Positions 5,980 through 15,717 of a DNA stretch of 64,000 nt are shown in pieces. The notes beneath the pieces were generated by a model. It saw only the letters and a program-made list of their open reading frames with translations, made no database searches and was not told the origin of the DNA. The first letter of the stretch is position 1, and the number at the start of each line of letters is the position of its first letter. The stretch is taken from positions 124,001 to 188,000 of the forward strand of contig JBDOQK010000034.1 of assembly GCA_040437565.1 (NCBI GenBank), read 5' to 3'. The translations under genes were made by a program, and so were the position numbers. This DNA comes from Albugo candida (taxonomy: Eukaryota).

Positions 5980-7970
5980 TATCACTAATTCCACCTTCGA
6001 CTCTCATGACGTAGCATTAGGTAACAATAGTAAATCGGATTCTCCCAAAATTCCGCTTATGAAGACGAATGAACCGAAGCCTTTGCCGACTCGAACAAAC
6101 TTTCGGTTCCTTCGTCCACTTTGGTGTACGTTTGCCTCACTTTTTCAGCAAAGCATTGTGTCACAAATTGAGTCACTCGAGTCTTCAGAACGTCTTTCAG
6201 GCTCACTTCCTGTTGTTCCATCGACAGATCGCAGAGTTTTTCAGTCAATTCCACGAGCATTGCCAACTACAAAGCGAATTATTTCCAAATTTTTGACACA
6301 TTCAATGGAAAAACGTACTTTTTCTCGCAATTCCGTCAGACTTTGTTCGGCCGTATCGATCGCCAAAAACGATTGCTGATTGAATGCATTTCCACGCGTA
6401 CCTTTTGGCGTCATCTTATCCTCACGAGCGATCTCAGGATGCCGCGTTTCATCCTCAGCGACCTGATTATCGCAAGGCGTTTGTTTTTGAACGCGTTTGT
6501 CCACAATCTGAAGCGCTTCCTGCACGCGTTCGGCCAACATCGCGTGTTTATGGACTAACGATCGACACAAAGTCTGTGTCGAGAGATTGTGTTGTTGAGC
6601 GATTTTCTGAAGTTGTTCCAATTCAATTGCGAGTTTTTGTGTTTCGGCTTTAGCGGCAAAGCGCTTCTTATTGGACTCTTCGACTTGGCGTTTCGCATCG
6701 GCTAATTCTCTGGCGCGTTGTTGGCTCTTTTCCGATTCCTGGAGTACGTGGAGCGTTTGTTTCAGAATTTGGATTTCATCGGTGAGTTCGTGGACACTGC
6801 TGGCAGCTTGTACCAATTTCTGCTGAGAATTCTCANNNNNNNNNNNNNNNNNNNNNNNNNNNNNNNNNNNNNNNNNNNNNNNNNNNNNNNNNNNNNNNNN
6901 NNNNNNNNNNNNNNNNNNNNNNNNNNNNNNNNNNNATGGAGATACATCTCAGGATGGGAATGGTTCAGTCGATTCGGATTCCACGTCGCGCATGAAAATT
7001 TTCCGTCGTGTTGGCTTGTTGGCCGATCTCTTCCGACACGCACACGACGCTGACATTGAGAATTACATCCAAAACACTGAAAATCAACTTATGGATGAAG
7101 CAATTCGCGGCTGATATCACTAATTCCACCTTCGACTCTCATGACGTAGCATTAGGTAACAATAGTAAATCGGATTCTCCCAAAATTCCGCTTATGAAGA
7201 CGAATGAACCGAAGCCTTTGCCGACTCGAACAAACTTTCGGTTCCTTCGTCCACTTTGGTGTACGTTTGCCTCACTTTTTCAGCAAAGCATTGTGTCACA
7301 AATTGAGTCACTCGAGTCTTCAGAACGTCTTTCAGGCTCACTTCCTGTTGTTCCATCGACAGATCGCAGAGTTTTTCAGTCAATTCCACGAGCATTGCCA
7401 ACTACAAAGCGAATTATTTCCAAATTTTTGACACATTCAATGGAAAAACGTACTTTTTCTCGCAATTCCGTCAGACTTTGTTCGGCCGTATCGATCGCCA
7501 AAAACGATTGCTGATTGAATGCATTTCCACGCGTACCTTTTGGCGTCATCTTATCCTCACGAGCGATCTCAGGATGCCGCGTTTCATCCTCAGCGACCTG
7601 ATTATCGCAAGGCGTTTGTTTTTGAACGCGTTTGTCCACAATCTGAAGCGCTTCCTGCACGCGTTCGGCCAACATCGCGTGTTTATGGACTAACGATCGA
7701 CACAAAGTCTGTGTCGAGAGATTGTGTTGTTGAGCGATTTTCTGAAGTTGTTCCAATTCAATTGCGAGTTTTTGTGTTTCGGCTTTAGCGGCAAAGCGCT
7801 TCTTATTGGACTCTTCGACTTGGCGTTTCGCATCGGCTAATTCTCTGGCGCGTTGTTGGCTCTTTTCCGATTCCTGGAGTACGTGGAGCGTTTGTTTCAG
7901 AATTTGGATTTCATCGGTGAGTTCGTGGACACTGCTGGCAGCTTGTACCAATTTCTGCTGAGAATTCTCA
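5801..7970. repeat. Direct repeat 5801-6835 / 6936-7970 across a 100-N gap (likely assembly overlap)
   Basis: Sequence after the gap restarts at atggagatac (same as 5801), and identical ORF translations recur at offset 1135. Confidence 0.92.
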
Positions 7971-10939: not shown

Positions 10940-12573
10940 ATGGTAATGATCCAATAATCTTCTCAGCGCTGCTGACATTTTGCTGCTCTCAAGGATGATG
11001 AACTTGAAGACGATGTGCTCGCACCATTTCACAATATACCTAAATCGCCCTCTATAGTGCTGAACGTCTCTCAAGACGCTCAAGTACCTCTCAATGTGAT
11101 AAACCAAACTGCATCCTTGCAGGACGATGTCGCATCAGAAACAGACGAGCAATTAGGAGTCGACACCAACTCTACATCCGAAACAAAAATGGCGAAGGAA
11201 CAAAATCCTGTGGACGAAGAAGACGACGAGGAAGAGGAGGAAGTAGCAATTGTTCTCAGTAACAATAACAATGCAAAGCCAACGCTTCGATTCACAGGCG
11301 GATTCAATCGGTACATTCGGAATACTTTCACAGGCTTACCGCAACATAATCCTGTCAGTACTTCGTCACAAGAGTTTGGAGAGGTGAAGCAGATTTCCCT
11401 ATAAAGCGATCTTGAACAGAATGTATTATTTGTAGATTGACCCTATTGATGACGCGATGATGTTTGGAGCGCGAAGAACCGCTTTCGACGTCGATATCGA
11501 TATGCTGGAAGAAAAACCTTGGCGAAAACCTGGGATTGATATCGCAGATTACTTTAATTACGGATTTGATGAAAGAGGATGGCGTGTACGTACCTCATCT
11601 GTATATGACATGTTGCTTGAATGTGGGGATTTAGGAATACGCAGCGAAACAGCTCAAGATTCGACGTGAACTTGCTCTTGAAAAAGCAAAAGAACAGGCA
11701 GCACGTCAAGTATCGACCGCTGCGGTTGCTCATGCAAATGCCAATGCCGAACGAGCATCGAAAGCCTCACAAGAGGGTGGGAAATTCAATGGAAATCAAG
11801 CCAATAATCCGCCTAAAACAGACGTTGTGTCGGATACACCAATGGATCAAGCAAAGGAATGGATGCCTGGTTCCACAAATAATGCTTATGGAAGGGAGGG
11901 ACATGGAATTCATCCAGGTATGAATACATTCATGCAACCTCCACGAGATTGGCATCCGAATATGGGTCCACCACCTCCCTTTATGCCCAACTGGATGCAC
12001 GGTGGACCTCCACGCGACTGGGGTGGTCCAATGCCTCCTCCATGGATGCCTGGATCAAATACACAAGATACTGACGATGATCGCGGGAAAAGAGGCTCTC
12101 GTGAAAACTTCCAGGATCGTAAGGAGAATTCACATGGAAGACGAAATAATCGGGAAAATAGACGTCGAGGCAATCGAGACGATAAATTTGGTGAAGGTGA
12201 ATTCCACTTTAAAAGAGAACGCCAAAAAGACAGAACGTCGGTCGATGTACATCGTGATCTTAGTCGACAGCGTATGCGTGCCAAGGATAAAGACGAATCA
12301 ACTGACGCTGCTCGAGGTCGCGGTCGTGATCGACCAGAAGAAAAAAGCCGTGATCGATCTCGCGATCGACCTCAGGATCGCGAACGAAATCGAGACCGTG
12401 GAAAAGATCGTGATCGCTACCGAAACAATCGAAGTCATGAACGTGACCGAGGACGTGATCGTGGACGAGATCGCGAGAAATTCCCACCTCACGATCGTGA
12501 TAGCCGTAAGCGTAAAAATCGAGAATCTAGCGCCACCAGCAAATCAAGCTCTCGTCATAAACGTCGAGATTAA
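10940..12573 (+). CDS. FIP1: Pre-mRNA 3'-end processing factor FIP1
   Basis: Fip1 motif [31 protein letters not shown], acidic N-terminus, Pro-rich middle, RD/RE-rich tail and several short introns. The start is inferred as an ATG-only exon at 10940. Confidence 0.9.
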
Positions 12574-13508: not shown

Positions 13509-14714
13509 TTAAGCGAAAGAAGGCGCGCGCACTTTTTTCTGATACTCGACTTTGTGCTGTAATTTGCGCTGCGATAATGTCCAATTTGCCATAATACACA
13601 CATAGTCTCCTTCAAATGTTGCTTGCGTGTGTCCTCCCCGACGTCGATACGACTGTTCGTCGTCCAGTACCACAATATCTTTCTCGAAAATCTCCATCTT
13701 TAAAGTTTTCAATGCGTTCTGATCGGCAAACACACTGACTGTGAATTTTCCAGGCTGAAAACATCGAACCACATTTTTCAAAAGCGAATCATAACACCGA
13801 AGACGCGCGTTCGTTTCAAAACTGACATAACTGCAATGCGATTCCGGTGTCACATGAATCGTATAATACGCATCGAATAGAATGCCGTTCATCGAGTACC
13901 CGCACGGTTCAAATGCAACTTCGTCAAGAATAGCTCCGGGGACCAAATCTCGTATACCGCTTTTGATTGTGATTTCGCGCGAACTGATGGCCGGATCCAA
14001 ATTTTTGCGAAATTGTTTCGCGATATCCTCATTCATTGCTTGCATCATAATATGAAGTGTACTGTCCGAATTTTGCATCGAACGGGTATCAGAATACGCA
14101 GATATTGATCGGATTGGGTCACTTATAGTCCAGCCATTGTCTTGGTGGTGCTCGGCATCCCATACATATATGTACCAATGATCATCATTTAGTGGCCCCA
14201 AGACGTGAGCGGATCCGTTGGGAAAGTATTGGCTCAAATATGCGACCTCAGTAGTGAATGAAGTGTGTGGAAATCGCTGTTCTTCCGGAAATATATAATT
14301 TTTACGCGAATACCCAACCCACTGGATGTCCATATCTAGTTTCTTGGCGGCGCTTATAATGATTGGAAGACATGCCAAAAGTGTTGTTGTACCACAAGTT
14401 TTCAGGACTAATTTATTCGCGTACACAAATAAACTCGATTCCGATAGGACGTATGCATCAAGATGGGAGTTTTGTATCTTGGAAAGAATTTGACATTTTG
14501 CAGCTTCCAGCATTGTATCCAGCTCCTGTCGTGAAACCTGGCGAAATCCGAGCGGCGATGTAGAAGATTTGACTCTAAAGTCGATTTCCAGGTTTTTTTC
14601 TGGTCCTTCAAATACACTGCCGACGAAGAGAGCAGATGACTCGGATTGGGTCGAGCTTGTTTCTTCATCGGGAGTACAAGGACTTTTAATTGGTGGGGCG
14701 TCTGAAAGTGTCAT
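13509..14714 (-). CDS. SAMDC: S-adenosylmethionine decarboxylase proenzyme
   Basis: FEGPEKNLEI, self-cleavage site AYVLSESSLFV, LKTCGTT, FEPCGYSMN, TIHVTPE, SYVSFE. Confidence 0.97.
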   Translation of the reverse strand: MTLSDAPPIKSPCTPDEETSSTQSESSALFVGSVFEGPEKNLEIDFRVKSSTSPLGFRQVSRQELDTMLEAAKCQILSKIQNSHLDAYVLSESSLFVYANKLVLKTCGTTTLLACLPIIISAAKKLDMDIQWVGYSRKNYIFPEEQRFPHTSFTTEVAYLSQYFPNGSAHVLGPLNDDHWYIYVWDAEHHQDNGWTISDPIRSISAYSDTRSMQNSDSTLHIMMQAMNEDIAKQFRKNLDPAISSREITIKSGIRDLVPGAILDEVAFEPCGYSMNGILFDAYYTIHVTPESHCSYVSFETNARLRCYDSLLKNVVRCFQPGKFTVSVFADQNALKTLKMEIFEKDIVVLDDEQSYRRRGGHTQATFEGDYVCIMANWTLSQRKLQHKVEYQKKVRAPSFA

Positions 14715-15153
14715 ATTGCACTCGAGTTTTGATAAGTGTTATGCTGGCTCGTCACAAGCACCGACGTAAAAGAAGCCAGTGAAGATAGACCGACGATCCA
14801 CGATATATTTGAGCTTGTTGTTTGAAGAAAGTTCTTCAATTAACAGCATTAACGACGCAAGAGANNNNNNNNNNNNNNNNNNNNNNNNNNNNNNNNNNNN
14901 NNNNNNNNNNNNNNNNNNNNNNNNNNNNNNNNNNNNNNNNNNNNNNNNNNNNNNNNNNNNNNNNACAAGGACTTTTAATTGGTGGGGCGTCTGAAAGTGT
15001 CATATTGCACTCGAGTTTTGATAAGTGTTATGCTGGCTCGTCACAAGCACCGACGTAAAAGAAGCCAGTGAAGATAGACCGACGATCCACGATATATTTG
15101 AGCTTGTTGTTTGAAGAAAGTTCTTCAATTAACAGCATTAACGACGCAAGAGA
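14676..15153. repeat. Direct repeat 14676-14864 / 14965-15153 across a 100-N gap
   Basis: Both copies start acaaggactttt and end gcaagaga. Confidence 0.9.
14739..14849 (-). promoter_or_regulatory. 36-codon upstream ORF in the SAMDC leader (second copy at 15028-15138 in the gap duplication)
   Basis: Translated by hand: MLLIEELSSNNKLKYIVDRRSIFTGFFYVGACDEPA*. Its stop lies 24 nt before the SAMDC ATG. Confidence 0.6.
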
Positions 15154-15391
15154 CAATGTTTGACAATACAATTTGCGTCTGACTTGGTTATATAAAAATC
15201 GATCAATGGTAGGCTAATAGGACAATCGAATGTTGGTAATTTCAGTGTACAGCTTTGATTCGATGCCAGCTAAAATGACTGGCTCTTATAGCTCGCATGA
15301 TTCTGATCATTTTCTGCGCTCCTTTTTGGCCAATCAAAATTATCCAATCATACAATTGTTTCAACTCTTTGAAATGACTGCTTTTGTAAAG

Positions 15392-15717
15392 AGCAGCCGT
15401 GAGGCTTGACTGAATGCGATCGATGTATTGACACTCTCTAATTACGGATGGGTAGATGTCTGTATAAAACTGTTAAAATGATAACTGAAAGTAATCCCAG
15501 GGAANNNNNNNNNNNNNNNNNNNNNNNNNNNNNNNNNNNNNNNNNNNNNNNNNNNNNNNNNNNNNNNNNNNNNNNNNNNNNNNNNNNNNNNNNNNNNNNN
15601 NNNNAGCAGCCGTGAGGCTTGACTGAATGCGATCGATGTATTGACACTCTCTAATTACGGATGGGTAGATGTCTGTATAAAACTGTTAAAATGATAACTG
15701 AAAGTAATCCCAGGGAA
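15392..15717. repeat. Direct repeat 15392-15504 / 15605-15717 across a 100-N gap
   Basis: agcagccgtgagg...cccagggaa occurs on both sides of the gap. Confidence 0.9.

What the first reader, a model, noticed from the sequence alone, without database searches (positions are those of the whole stretch)
14715..14852. Candidate polyamine-sensing peptide uORF ending Pro-Ala-stop just upstream of SAMDC
Seen: a minus-strand ORF at 14849-14739 encodes MLLIEELSSNNKLKYIVDRRSIFTGFFYVGACDEPA* and ends 24 nt before the SAMDC ATG, in the same frame with an open 8-codon spacer. Its AUG has a weak context (U at -3), whereas the main AUG has A at -3. No other AUG occurs for about 150 nt further upstream. Known: SAMDC mRNAs are repressed by sequence-dependent uORFs (mammalian MAGDIS; the plant small uORF ending Pro-Ser-stop). 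Inference: the peptide resembles neither beyond the Pro-X-stop ending, so it may be an independently evolved oomycete polyamine sensor. I cannot confirm that it is undescribed.
Basis: partly seen in the sequence, partly recalled or inferred. Interest (0 to 1): 0.78.

Follow-up and report, generated by a model that had tools for sequence, protein, structure and literature searches.

The report
Conserved leader-peptide uORF before oomycete SAMDC
A short reading frame just ahead of the polyamine-synthesis gene SAMDC in this oomycete encodes a peptide whose last 22 residues are conserved in other oomycetes and in distant algae-like protists, so it is very probably a built-in translational brake of the kind already known from plants and mammals, but with a peptide sequence of its own.

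Summary
In detail: a 36-codon minus-strand uORF (14849-14739, TAA) ends 24 nt before the AUG of a bona fide SAMDC gene (Pfam PF01536, E 2e-109).

The uORF is not chance and not oomycete-only. Its C-terminal 22 residues recur in at least 10 further oomycete-type peptides (…DDIVDPTNIFTGFFYIGACDEPA*) and, more loosely, in SAMDC leaders of non-oomycete protists. A profile built from five such metagenomic leaders, without the window, finds this uORF as the only significant hit among 1,907 window ORFs (E 1e-7). Conserved residues are often encoded by different synonymous codons.

Also conserved are a weak uAUG context and a C (usually CA) right after the uORF stop: 32 of 33 carriers against 17-24% in controls. 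Diatom SAMDC uORFs share this.

Best reading: a nascent-peptide uORF that arrests ribosomes at its stop codon and represses SAMDC, probably in response to polyamines. Function is inferred, not shown. It does not match Pfam's plant leader family PF08132. SAMDC uORFs are published for many lineages including diatoms; eight literature searches found none for oomycetes. The scan noted plant-type SAMDC uORFs earlier in green algae.

The parts
14739..14849 (-). uORF, 36 codons plus TAA (MLLIEELSSNNKLKYIVDRRSIFTGFFYVGACDEPA*)
   Evidence: Only significant window hit of relatives' profiles: E 1.1e-7 and E 7.9e-15 with an oomycete-only profile; both were scored on the identical right-hand copy.
14742..14807 (-). 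Conserved C-terminal 22 codons (YIVDRRSIFTGFFYVGACDEPA), the presumed arrest-peptide core
   Evidence: Aligns without gaps to 8-13 relatives; V, D, G, G, A, C, P invariant in A4. 16-17 of 22 identical to oomycete relatives, against 3-5 of 14 in the N-terminal part.
14847..14849 (-). uAUG in weak context (T at -3, C at +4); first AUG downstream of the contig 5' end at 15207
   Evidence: None of 19 uAUGs of carriers has A at -3, and 17 of 19 have C at +4.
14730..14741 (-). uORF stop TAA plus the next 9 nt (CACTTATCA): conserved C-A after the stop, a poor-termination type of context
   Evidence: C at +4 in 32 of 33 carriers, CA in 29 of 33. Controls: 24%/10.5% (564 other leader ORFs), 17%/4.9% (629 reverse-strand ORFs), 15 and 3 of 72 main-ORF stops.
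14715..14738 (-). 24-nt spacer, AUG-free, open and in frame (not a conserved property)
   Evidence: Spacers of type-A relatives with an intact uORF end are 30-68 nt (L009, displaced by an apparent intron: 237 nt). Spacer in frame in 8 of 33 carriers, open in 1.
13509..14714 (-). Main ORF: S-adenosylmethionine decarboxylase proenzyme, 401 aa
   Evidence: PF01536, E 2e-109. 59-64% identical to Pythium, Phytophthora and Globisporangium SAMDC. Inside the oomycete clade.
14865..14964 (.). 100-N scaffold gap
14965..15153 (-). Exact duplicate of 14676-14864 (uORF, spacer, first 39 nt of SAMDC): an assembly artefact, not a second uORF
   Evidence: Contigs of runs X1 and X6 run straight through it without a joint.
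15154..15207 (-). True 5' part of the leader. With the 15 nt of 15139-15153 it gives 69 AUG-free nt before the uAUG, up to the 5' end of a 1,464-nt transcript-sized contig
   Evidence: X1 contig lies on 14965-15207 at depth 193; 'RNA' is only a guess for that run. (leader sequence holds no ATG).

Best explanation
The ORF is a conserved-peptide regulatory uORF of the SAMDC mRNA.

Inferred mechanism. Scanning ribosomes meet the uAUG first, and its weak context (U at -3, C at +4) lets a share of them scan past it to the strong SAMDC AUG 135 nt further on; there is no other AUG between. Ribosomes that do translate the uORF carry a nascent chain whose last ~22 residues (IVD...IFTGFFY[VI]GACDEPA) fill the exit tunnel when the stop codon enters the A site. 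This peptide ends in Pro-Ala. Together with a stop codon in a poor context (stop followed by C-A), it slows or blocks termination. The arrested ribosome sits about 24 nt before the main AUG and blocks following scanners, and may trigger mRNA decay, so less SAMDC is made. By analogy with the mammalian and plant SAMDC uORFs, the arrest is probably strengthened by spermidine/spermine, giving feedback control of polyamine synthesis.

Shown: the ORF, its place, its peptide-level conservation, and the conserved start and stop contexts. Likely but indirect: that it lies in the mRNA. Inferred only: arrest, repression and polyamine response.
For: (1) SAMDC identity and conserved main start.

(2) Peptide conservation. 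A search of 1.84 billion representatives with the 36-aa peptide gave 2 hits, both ending ...IFTGFFYIGACDEPA at their C-terminus. A profile search gave 16 short proteins, at least 10 of them of the oomycete type.

(3) Linkage to SAMDC. It is direct in metagenomic loci: type-A peptide ORFs occur in 10 of 70 SAMDC leaders (8 distinct sequences), against 0 of 630 reverse-strand control ORFs. It is indirect for oomycete relatives: six peptide/SAMDC pairs share the same longest-contig length (20771, 13545, 3991, 1622, 1606, 2089). Four of these SAMDCs are 77-87% identical to Pythium or Phytophthora SAMDC.

(4) Statistics. Profiles built without the window hit the window uORF at E 1.1e-7 and E 7.9e-15 as the sole hit. 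Pairwise BLASTP to the L079 peptide gives E 8e-9.

(5) Selection acts on the peptide, not the RNA. Window against L078: 13 of 21 residues are the same, 8 of them through different codons; identity by codon position is 14/17/9 of 21. The tail is 73-77% identical where the enzyme is 58-62%.

(6) Fixed register. The tail aligns without gaps to the stop codon in all relatives.

(7) Weak uAUG and strong main AUG are conserved.

(8) The stop is followed by C in 32 of 33 carriers, against 17-24% in controls.

(9) A 1,464-nt contig of run X1 (depth 193) starts 69 nt upstream of the uAUG. By arithmetic it should end about 53 nt past the SAMDC stop, which is the size of an mRNA. There is no joint in the stretch.

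(10) Published precedent: mammalian and plant SAMDC uORF peptides cause polyamine-responsive ribosomal arrest (PMC5587730 introduction and PMC2811004, passages read; 'at the stop codon' is taken from the title of Uchiyama-Kadokura 2014 in a reference list).
Against: No functional datum exists for this or any type-A peptide.

The runs laid are only guessed to be RNA, and contigs cannot prove a transcription start. A second, low-depth contig (X6, depth 4.5) reaches 15328. If that contig is RNA, the leader would be longer and would hold further AUGs (15298, 15310).

Penultimate proline is not universal in the wider family: the A2 subtype ends ...LE[IVY]A*. The Pro-X-stop rule therefore cannot be the whole mechanism.

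The link between the oomycete subtype and the A2 subtype is weak in one direction (E 0.033).

There is no detectable sequence relation to the plant leader family PF08132 or to the diatom type (hhalign probability 1%). The analogy therefore rests on position and shared contexts.

For oomycete relatives the adjacency of peptide and SAMDC is inferred from equal contig lengths; it was not seen in DNA.
Confidence: 0.65

Rival explanations
1. A conserved cis-acting arrest or repressor uORF that is not polyamine-responsive. It would act as a constitutive damper of SAMDC translation, or as a sensor of another metabolite such as S-adenosylmethionine or its decarboxylated product.
For: All the conservation evidence fits this reading equally well. 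Hayashi et al. 2017 (PMC5587730, passages read) note that arrest uORFs exist both with and without small-molecule effectors.
Against: Every SAMDC uORF studied so far, mammalian and plant, responds to polyamines. Feedback by the pathway's end product is the simplest reason for repeated conservation of a uORF at this one gene.
Confidence: 0.17
2. The ORF encodes a small protein that acts in trans (a micropeptide), and its place before SAMDC is a polycistronic arrangement.
For: The peptide sequence is under selection.
Against: Conservation is confined to the C-terminal about 22 residues in fixed register with the stop codon. The N-terminal part and the length vary freely (30-56 aa). The nucleotides after the stop and the weak start context are also conserved. 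These are properties of a ribosome-bound nascent peptide, not of a folded product. No Pfam family matches.
Confidence: 0.05
3. Programmed readthrough of the uORF stop gives an N-terminally extended SAMDC. In the window the uORF is in frame with the main ORF, the spacer is open, and the stop context is leaky.
For: The spacer is in frame and open in the window and in L079. A C-A after the stop resembles contexts that favour readthrough; that motif knowledge is recalled, not taken from a call.
Against: The spacer is in frame in only 8 of 33 carriers, and open in only 1 of those 8. L078 and L005 are in frame but have stops in the spacer. Relatives' SAMDC proteins start at the conserved main AUG.
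Confidence: 0.04
4. A chance ORF in untranscribed promoter DNA, or an artefact of the assembly.
For: Oomycete 5' leaders are usually short (recalled, not tested). The region abuts an assembly gap with duplicated flanks.
Against: Independent contigs of two runs cover the uORF with one base difference outside it. Conservation statistics are strong, and synonymous changes occur at conserved residues.
Confidence: 0.02

Closest known systems
Plant AdoMetDC/SAMDC 'small uORF' leader peptide (Pfam PF08132 AdoMetDC_leader; conserved-peptide uORF)
   Same: It lies in the SAMDC 5' leader. It is a sequence-dependent type of uORF with a conserved C-terminal part and a penultimate proline (PMC2811004). The published mechanism is polyamine-responsive arrest, which is the model adopted here.
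   Different: There is no sequence match: 0 of 13 type-A peptides hit PF08132 at E up to 10. The window peptide has 36 residues instead of 48-55. There is no overlapping 'tiny' uORF, since no AUG occurs for 160 nt upstream. The peptide ends Pro-Ala rather than Pro-Ser. Green-algal members noted earlier in this scan (e1-565782, e1-565301) were filed under PF08132; this one cannot be.
Diatom SAMDC uORF (mentioned, without sequence, in the passages of Ivanov, Atkins & Michael 2010 that I read; here 'type B', ...IVFVVPILLAVPSAKS[YF]PS*)
   Same: It belongs to the same large group (stramenopiles) and sits at the same gene and place. It has a penultimate Pro, a DIV motif about 20 residues before the stop, a weak uAUG (ATGC, no A at -3), and a stop followed by CA(G)CCC.
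   Different: Peptide profiles are not demonstrably related (hhalign probability 1.15%). Diatom spacers are longer (21-301 nt in the 23 type-B carriers, against 24 nt).
Mammalian AMD1 uORF (MAGDIS)
   Same: A peptide-dependent, polyamine-modulated ribosome stall just before termination of a uORF represses SAMDC.
   Different: It is a hexapeptide that starts 14 nt from the cap and has no penultimate proline. The window uORF has 36 codons, lies about 69 nt from the likely 5' end, and has a 22-residue conserved tail.
Fungal arginine attenuator peptide (arg-2 / CPA1 uORF)
   Same: A conserved nascent peptide of a uORF stalls ribosomes in response to the pathway's end product, and leaky scanning past a weak uAUG feeds the main ORF.
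   Different: It belongs to a different pathway and peptide family. Its stalling is not linked to termination.

Membership tests
SAMDC/AdoMetDC regulatory uORFs (functional class as reviewed by Ivanov, Atkins & Michael 2010) | uORF lies in the 5' leader of the SAMDC mRNA, upstream of the main AUG | tested here: met
   In sequence: it ends 24 nt upstream of the conserved SAMDC start. In RNA the evidence is only indirect: a transcript-sized contig starts 69 nt before the uAUG (the run's RNA status is a guess).
SAMDC/AdoMetDC regulatory uORFs (functional class as reviewed by Ivanov, Atkins & Michael 2010) | Peptide sequence conserved between species (sequence-dependent type) | tested here: met
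SAMDC/AdoMetDC regulatory uORFs (functional class as reviewed by Ivanov, Atkins & Michael 2010) | Penultimate proline (stated as general outside vertebrates and sea squirt) | tested here: met
   The window ends Pro-Ala-stop, and P is invariant in 13 of 13 A4 rows. The related A2 subtype has I, V or Y there.
SAMDC/AdoMetDC regulatory uORFs (functional class as reviewed by Ivanov, Atkins & Michael 2010) | Represses main-ORF translation in response to polyamines | not testable with these tools
   Needs reporter, toeprint or ribosome-profiling experiments.
Plant AdoMetDC leader peptide, Pfam PF08132 | Match to the family HMM | tested here: not met
   No Pfam hit for the window peptide at E up to 1. 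None for any of 13 type-A peptides at E up to 10.
Plant AdoMetDC leader peptide, Pfam PF08132 | Paired with an overlapping upstream 'tiny' uORF; small uORF of 48-55 residues | tested here: not met
   No ATG for 160 nt upstream of the uAUG. The peptide has 36 residues.
Diatom-type SAMDC uORF (type B of this report) | Peptide profile ...IVFVVPILLAVPSAKS[YF]PS* | tested here: not met
   hhalign of A4 against A5 gives probability 1.15%, with only DIV aligned. The type-B HMM was run on loci leaders only, where it hit 23 of 70.
Diatom-type SAMDC uORF (type B of this report) | Shared non-peptide features: uAUG without A at -3 and with C at +4; stop followed by C-A | tested here: met
Type-A SAMDC leader peptide (family defined in this report) | C-terminal [IVL]VD-x(3)-[IFLM]-[FYH]-x-[GK]...E-x-[AS]-stop in fixed register, directly upstream of SAMDC | tested here: met
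   Gap-free alignment A3/A4. Profile E 1.1e-7 and E 7.9e-15.
Mammalian MAGDIS uORF | Hexapeptide MAGDIS starting about 14 nt from the cap | tested here: not met
   36 codons, about 69 nt from the contig 5' end, unrelated sequence.

The most novel reading that the evidence does not exclude
The oomycete peptide, its relatives in ochrophyte-like protists and the diatom uORF may all descend from one ancient stramenopile SAMDC arrest module. Its invariant core would be composite: a tunnel-filling tail in fixed register, a small last residue (Ala or Ser, usually after Pro), and a stop codon embedded in ...CC-stop-CAR-YCC. This would mean the terminating ribosome, not the peptide alone, is the polyamine sensor. 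The A2 subtype, which lacks the penultimate proline, would show that proline is dispensable for such sensing.
Probability: 0.35. Interest if true: 0.7.

Novelty: new variant of a known kind. Interest (0 to 1): 0.52.

Why it matters
SAMDC is the textbook case of metabolite-sensing uORFs, but only the mammalian hexapeptide and the plant leader peptide have been studied.

A third peptide family at the same gene, with no detectable sequence relation to the other two, offers a natural comparison set. It is conserved from oomycete plant and animal pathogens to free-living algae-like protists. It could help show which features of a nascent chain and of a stop-codon context make a terminating ribosome sensitive to polyamines.

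The shared 'stop + C-A' context and the weak uAUG are concrete, testable design rules.

For genome annotation, the peptide profile marks the true 5' leader of SAMDC in oomycetes, where leaders are rarely annotated.

The report also flags that this assembly's gaps carry duplicated flanks, which can create phantom second copies of small features.

Tried and rejected
(1) Whole-genome access: none is held.

The question was then put to the exhaustive HMMER library, which accepts 30 aa. Later it was put as an alignment headed by the natural 41-aa L079 peptide.

(3) RNA evidence: no RNA holder is listed for the stretch. All four runs laid are contigs of runs whose RNA status is a guess. X5 and X7 gave nothing on the stretch. 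No statement on expression level is made.

(4) The metagenome scan with 26 oomycete SAMDCs returned no oomycete-grade locus; all 80 loci are 34-46% identical. No DNA of an oomycete relative's leader could therefore be read, and no dN/dS could be computed within oomycetes.

[quoted passage not shown] By eye, the only GT...AG pair spanning the stop is 41 nt long and shifts the frame, and no joint appears in the laid contigs.

(6) Readthrough fusion was rejected as a general feature.

(7) Naming the non-oomycete type-A carriers largely failed. The listing of cluster members gave only Chattonella (a raphidophyte) for proteins near L007, which groups with L006. The atlas look-up for the L079 SAMDC returned only generic SAMDC clusters.

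(8) Homology of type A to type B was not shown by hhalign.

(9) A profile-profile test against the plant family could not be run, because no plant leader sequences were available from the tools.

(10) Literature searches looked for oomycete, Phytophthora or stramenopile terms together with SAMDC, AdoMetDC, uORF or CPuORF. They gave no paper on an oomycete SAMDC uORF by title or abstract. PMC3432380 mentions only the antizyme upstream ORF. Papers outside the open-access library and the supplementary figures S1/S2 of PMC2811004 were not seen.
Full report
**1. What is in the sequence**

On the minus strand, an ATG at 14849 opens a 36-codon frame, MLLIEELSSNNKLKYIVDRRSIFTGFFYVGACDEPA, closed by TAA at 14741-14739. 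Twenty-four AUG-free nucleotides follow. They are open and in frame. Then comes the ATG at 14714 of a 401-codon ORF (to 13509) that is S-adenosylmethionine decarboxylase (Pfam PF01536, E 2e-109). The uAUG has T at -3 and C at +4. The main AUG has A at -3. The uORF and spacer hold no other ATG, so the SAMDC AUG is the second AUG downstream of 15207.

The closest named SAMDC relatives are oomycetes. Pythium, Globisporangium, Phytophthora, Lagenidium and the downy mildews are 59-64% identical; Saprolegniales are 46-51%. In a quick maximum-likelihood tree of 90 rows, the window's enzyme lies inside the oomycete clade. It is sister to the Pythium/Phytophthora/Lagenidium group, with Saprolegniales outside (SH-aLRT 97 and 95; the careful search did not finish). 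The main start codon is the conserved one: all 26 aligned oomycete proteins begin within a few residues of it.

**2.

A run of 100 N (14865-14964) begins 15 nt upstream of the uAUG. Its two flanks are exact 189-nt duplicates (14676-14864 = 14965-15153). The copy of the uORF at 15138-15028 and the copy of the first 39 nt of SAMDC are therefore scaffolding overlap, not a second element.

All eight gaps of the window have this structure. The duplicated flanks measure 2949 (cut by the window end), 1550, 1035, 592, 189, 113, 65 and 54 nt. Public contigs of two runs cross the right-hand copy without any joint.

The real leader continues at 15154. The nearest upstream ATG is at 15298, 160 nt before the uAUG.

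**3. Is it in the mRNA?**

Sixteen public runs hold the stretch, and none is on record as RNA. I laid four of them, from four studies, on 14965-15504.

- Run X1 gave one contig of 1,464 nt at depth 193. It starts at 15207, 69 nt upstream of the uAUG, and runs off the low end into SAMDC. The remaining 1,220 nt equal the rest of the ORF (1,167 nt) plus about 53 nt. The contig therefore has the size and limits expected of the mRNA.
- Run X6 gave a 364-nt contig at depth 4.5 that reaches 15328.
- X5 and X7 gave nothing on this stretch.

Because RNA status is a guess and contigs do not define ends, this is a hint, not proof. If X6 is RNA, longer leaders with further AUGs would exist. Position 15207 is the A of CCATTG. 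This loosely resembles an initiator element (recalled, not tested).

**4. Relatives of the peptide**

*(a) Exhaustive search with the peptide.* An exhaustive HMMER search of 1.84 billion representative proteins with the 36-aa peptide gave two hits at E 2e-4. One is a 36-aa ORF. The other is a 64-aa ORF call whose last 30 residues start with M. Both end ...IFTGFFYIGACDEPA at their very C-terminus, which is 14 of 15 identical to the window.

*(b) Metagenome scan for SAMDC loci.* A scan of metagenome contigs with an alignment of 26 oomycete SAMDCs returned 80 loci, all 34-46% identical and many on transcript-sized contigs. I listed the leader ORFs of these loci. Two recurrent peptide types emerged.

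- **Type A** shares the window's tail. Examples:
  - L079: ...ADIVDEASMYEGVFFYGACEEPS*
  - L078: IVDDSSIYEGVLYIGACDEPS* (the contig starts inside the uORF)
  - L005: ...YIVDDTDFYIGEPVVGKILEIA*
  - L001-L004: ...DIVDDTSIYTGEPVVATILEVA*
  - L010: ...YLVDTRDLYLGEHPEAKLLEYA*
  - L006: ...DIVDSTFMHLKFLLIAQDIEPS*
- **Type B** reads M...IVFVVPILLAVPSAKS[YF]PS*.

*(c) Profile search.* A profile search of 5.8 billion proteins with the type-A alignment gave 16 short proteins among 27 candidates. At least 10 of them carry the oomycete-type tail ...[SC][DN]DIVD[PAQ]T[NST]IFTGFF[YF][IT]GACD[ED]PA*.

*Linkage of peptide and SAMDC.* Six peptides share their longest-contig length with a SAMDC protein:

| Peptide | SAMDC protein | Longest contig (nt) |
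|---|---|---|
| P0124 | P0005 | 20771 |
| P0125 | P0007 | 13545 |
| P0130 | P0011 | 3991 |
| P0133 | P0010 | 1622 |
| P0134 | P0048 | 1606 |
| P0132 | P0260 | 2089 |

P0005 and P0007 are 83-87% identical to Pythium brassicae SAMDC. P0010 is 83% identical to P. insidiosum. P0011 is 77% identical to Phytophthora boehmeriae. That peptide and enzyme lie on one contig is an inference from these equal lengths. In the loci L005 and L079 it is seen directly.

**5. Statistics and controls**

- Pairwise BLASTP of the window peptide against L079 gives 11 of 21 identical, E 8e-9.
- An HMM of the last 24 residues of the five metagenomic peptides alone scores the window uORF at E 1.1e-7 among 1,907 stop-to-stop ORFs (20 aa or longer, without X). 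The next best is E 2.8.
- An HMM of nine oomycete-type peptides, without the window, scores it at E 7.9e-15 as the sole hit. In the loci leaders the same HMM finds L078 (4e-10), L079 (8e-8), L001-L004 (1.6e-4) and L009 (0.012), and nothing at E 0.05 or better among the reverse-strand controls. It does not reach L005, L006 or L010.
- A profile of the A2 subtype alone (L005, L001, L010, P0134) ranks the window uORF first, but only at E 0.033.
- With the seven-sequence profile, type-A ORFs occur in 10 of 70 loci that have at least 100 nt of leader. L002-L004 are one sequence, so 8 are distinct. Type B occurs in 23 of 70. Both give 0 of 630 reverse-strand ORFs at E 0.01 or better.

**6. Selection on the peptide**

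Over the last 21 codons, window against L078 shows 5 identical codons, 8 synonymous-different codons and 8 amino-acid changes. Identity by codon position is 14/17/9 of 21. L079 behaves likewise, with 15/15/9. The stop codon itself varies between TAA, TAG and TGA.

Against the four oomycete relatives with a linked enzyme, the tail is 16-17 of 22 identical and its last 15 residues are 13-14 of 15. The N-terminal part is 3-5 of 14 identical, and the enzyme is 58-62% identical. About 30% of 22-residue enzyme windows are as conserved as the tail.

The tail aligns to the stop codon without a single gap in every relative. N-terminal length varies, with whole peptides of 30-56 aa. This is the pattern expected of a nascent chain read by the exit tunnel at termination.

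**7. Two further conserved features**

*Start context.* None of 19 uAUGs has A at -3; they comprise the window, 4 other type A and 14 type B. Sixteen have a pyrimidine there and 3 have G. Seventeen have C at +4. The main AUG has A at -3 in the window and in 12 of 14 diatom-type loci.

*Stop context.* The uORF stop is followed by C in 32 of 33 carriers and in the window. It is followed by C-A in 29 of 33; three have C-G. The one exception, L009, has its ORF end displaced by an apparent intron. The consensus is stop-CAG-CCC-TTA, and the window reads TAA-CAC-TTA.

Controls for C and for CA after the stop:

| Control set | C at +4 | CA at +4/+5 |
|---|---|---|
| 564 other leader ORFs | 24% | 10.5% |
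| 629 reverse-strand ORFs | 17% | 4.9% |
| 72 SAMDC main-ORF stops | 15 of 72 | 3 of 72 |

Among the carriers there are 28 distinct 21-nt stop contexts, and 24 of them have CA.

C after a stop codon is the weakest termination context in eukaryotes, and CAR-YYA-like contexts favour readthrough. Both points are established knowledge that I recall; neither comes from a call.

The in-frame open spacer is not conserved. It is in frame in 8 of 33 carriers and open only in L079.

**8. Who carries what**

Type B is the diatom form. The L055 enzyme is 60-88% identical to proteins named Thalassiosira, Cyclotella, Discostella, Cyclostephanos, Fistulifera, Seminavis and Nitzschia. All type-B loci fall in one 51-row clade (SH-aLRT 100).

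Type-A loci lie on at least three separate branches of the non-oomycete clade. That clade also holds brown algae, Phaeomonas, a chrysophyte and the diatoms. L006 groups with L007, whose enzyme is 75% identical to a Chattonella protein. The other carriers could not be named.

Type A is thus spread over oomycetes and several ochrophyte-like lineages, which argues for an old origin within stramenopiles. This is an inference: the tree is quick and midpoint-rooted, and the L078/L079 branch is long.

**9. Comparison with what is known**

[quoted passage not shown] They also state that the peptide 'always contains a penultimate proline' outside vertebrates and sea squirt. The words oomycete, Phytophthora, stramenopile and heterokont do not occur in the main text. 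The supplementary alignments could not be opened.

Mammalian and plant SAMDC uORF peptides cause polyamine-responsive ribosomal arrest (PMC5587730, introduction read). The plant arrest 'at the stop codon' is known to me from the title of Uchiyama-Kadokura 2014, seen in reference lists.

Pfam holds the plant peptide as PF08132; I learned this. The window peptide and all 13 type-A rows fail to match it at E up to 10, as do all 14 type-B rows. hhalign does not relate type A to type B (probability 1.15%).

Two earlier notes of this scan describe plant-type, PF08132-like SAMDC uORFs in green picoalgae and judged them ordinary.

Searches combining SAMDC, AdoMetDC, uORF or CPuORF with oomycete, Phytophthora or stramenopile found no report of an oomycete SAMDC uORF.

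**10. Verdict**

This is a conserved-peptide uORF of the SAMDC leader and very probably a translational repressor. It is not an oomycete invention, and its in-frame position is incidental.

It works like the plant and mammalian elements. This remains an inference. It rests on the uORF's position, the tail fixed in register with the stop, the Pro-Ala end, the weak uAUG and the poor stop context.

It fails the sequence test for membership in the plant family. I file it as a new variant of a known kind: a third SAMDC leader-peptide family, shared by oomycetes and other stramenopile-like protists. The conserved post-stop context is a new handle on mechanism.

Confidence is high (about 0.95) that it is a selected, peptide-coding uORF. 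Confidence is moderate (about 0.65) that it acts by termination arrest in response to polyamines.

Noticed in passing
window gaps at 6836, 14865, 15505, 17724, 23046, 34061, 53320, 61639: Every one of the 8 runs of 100 N is flanked by exact direct duplicates (1035, 189, 113, 592, 1550, 65, 54 and 2949 nt; the last is cut by the window end). Overlapping contig ends were joined with N instead of being merged, so small features next to gaps appear twice.
   Followed up: yes
window 15154: Contigs of two runs from different studies read A where the window has C (+ strand). This is the first base beyond the duplicated flank, so it is either a strain difference or a contig-end error.
   Followed up: no
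L012, L014, L016, L018, L027, L042, L044, L045, L048, L050-L052, L054, L055, L057, L062, L068, L070-L073, L076, L077 (leaders): A diatom-type SAMDC leader peptide, M...IVFVVPILLAVPSAKS[YF]PS*, occurs in 23 of 70 loci leaders. It lies 21-301 nt before the main AUG, with uAUG context ATGC and stop-CAGCCC. Several clade members have diverged tails without the Pro-Ser end (for example L014, L016, L057).
   Followed up: partly
L002:2556-2929 (also L003, L004), L001, L009:1405-1581; protein P0134: In genomic contigs the type-A uORF is split by an apparent intron. The protein P0134, probably from a transcript, shows the joined 50-aa form MPEYEQDISPFPFVDVITG|SLFILKDIADIVDD...LEVA*. An intron inside a regulatory uORF is unusual.
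   Followed up: partly
33 uORF carriers plus window 14730-14738: The nine nucleotides after the uORF stop are conserved across peptide types (consensus CAG CCC TTA). This region is non-coding, so the mRNA in the entry channel of the terminating ribosome seems to be under selection.
   Followed up: partly
L078, L079: The two closest non-oomycete relatives of the window's peptide (...GAC[DE]EPS*) have SAMDC enzymes on a very long common branch (4.09) in the tree. They are only 36-39% identical to the window's enzyme, so here the peptide tail is better conserved than the enzyme.
   Followed up: partly
window 11842-12573 (+): An ORF of 243 aa is very rich in Arg, Asp and Glu repeats (RDR/RER runs), in the manner of splicing-factor-like low-complexity tails. 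It converges on the 3' end of SAMDC.
   Followed up: no
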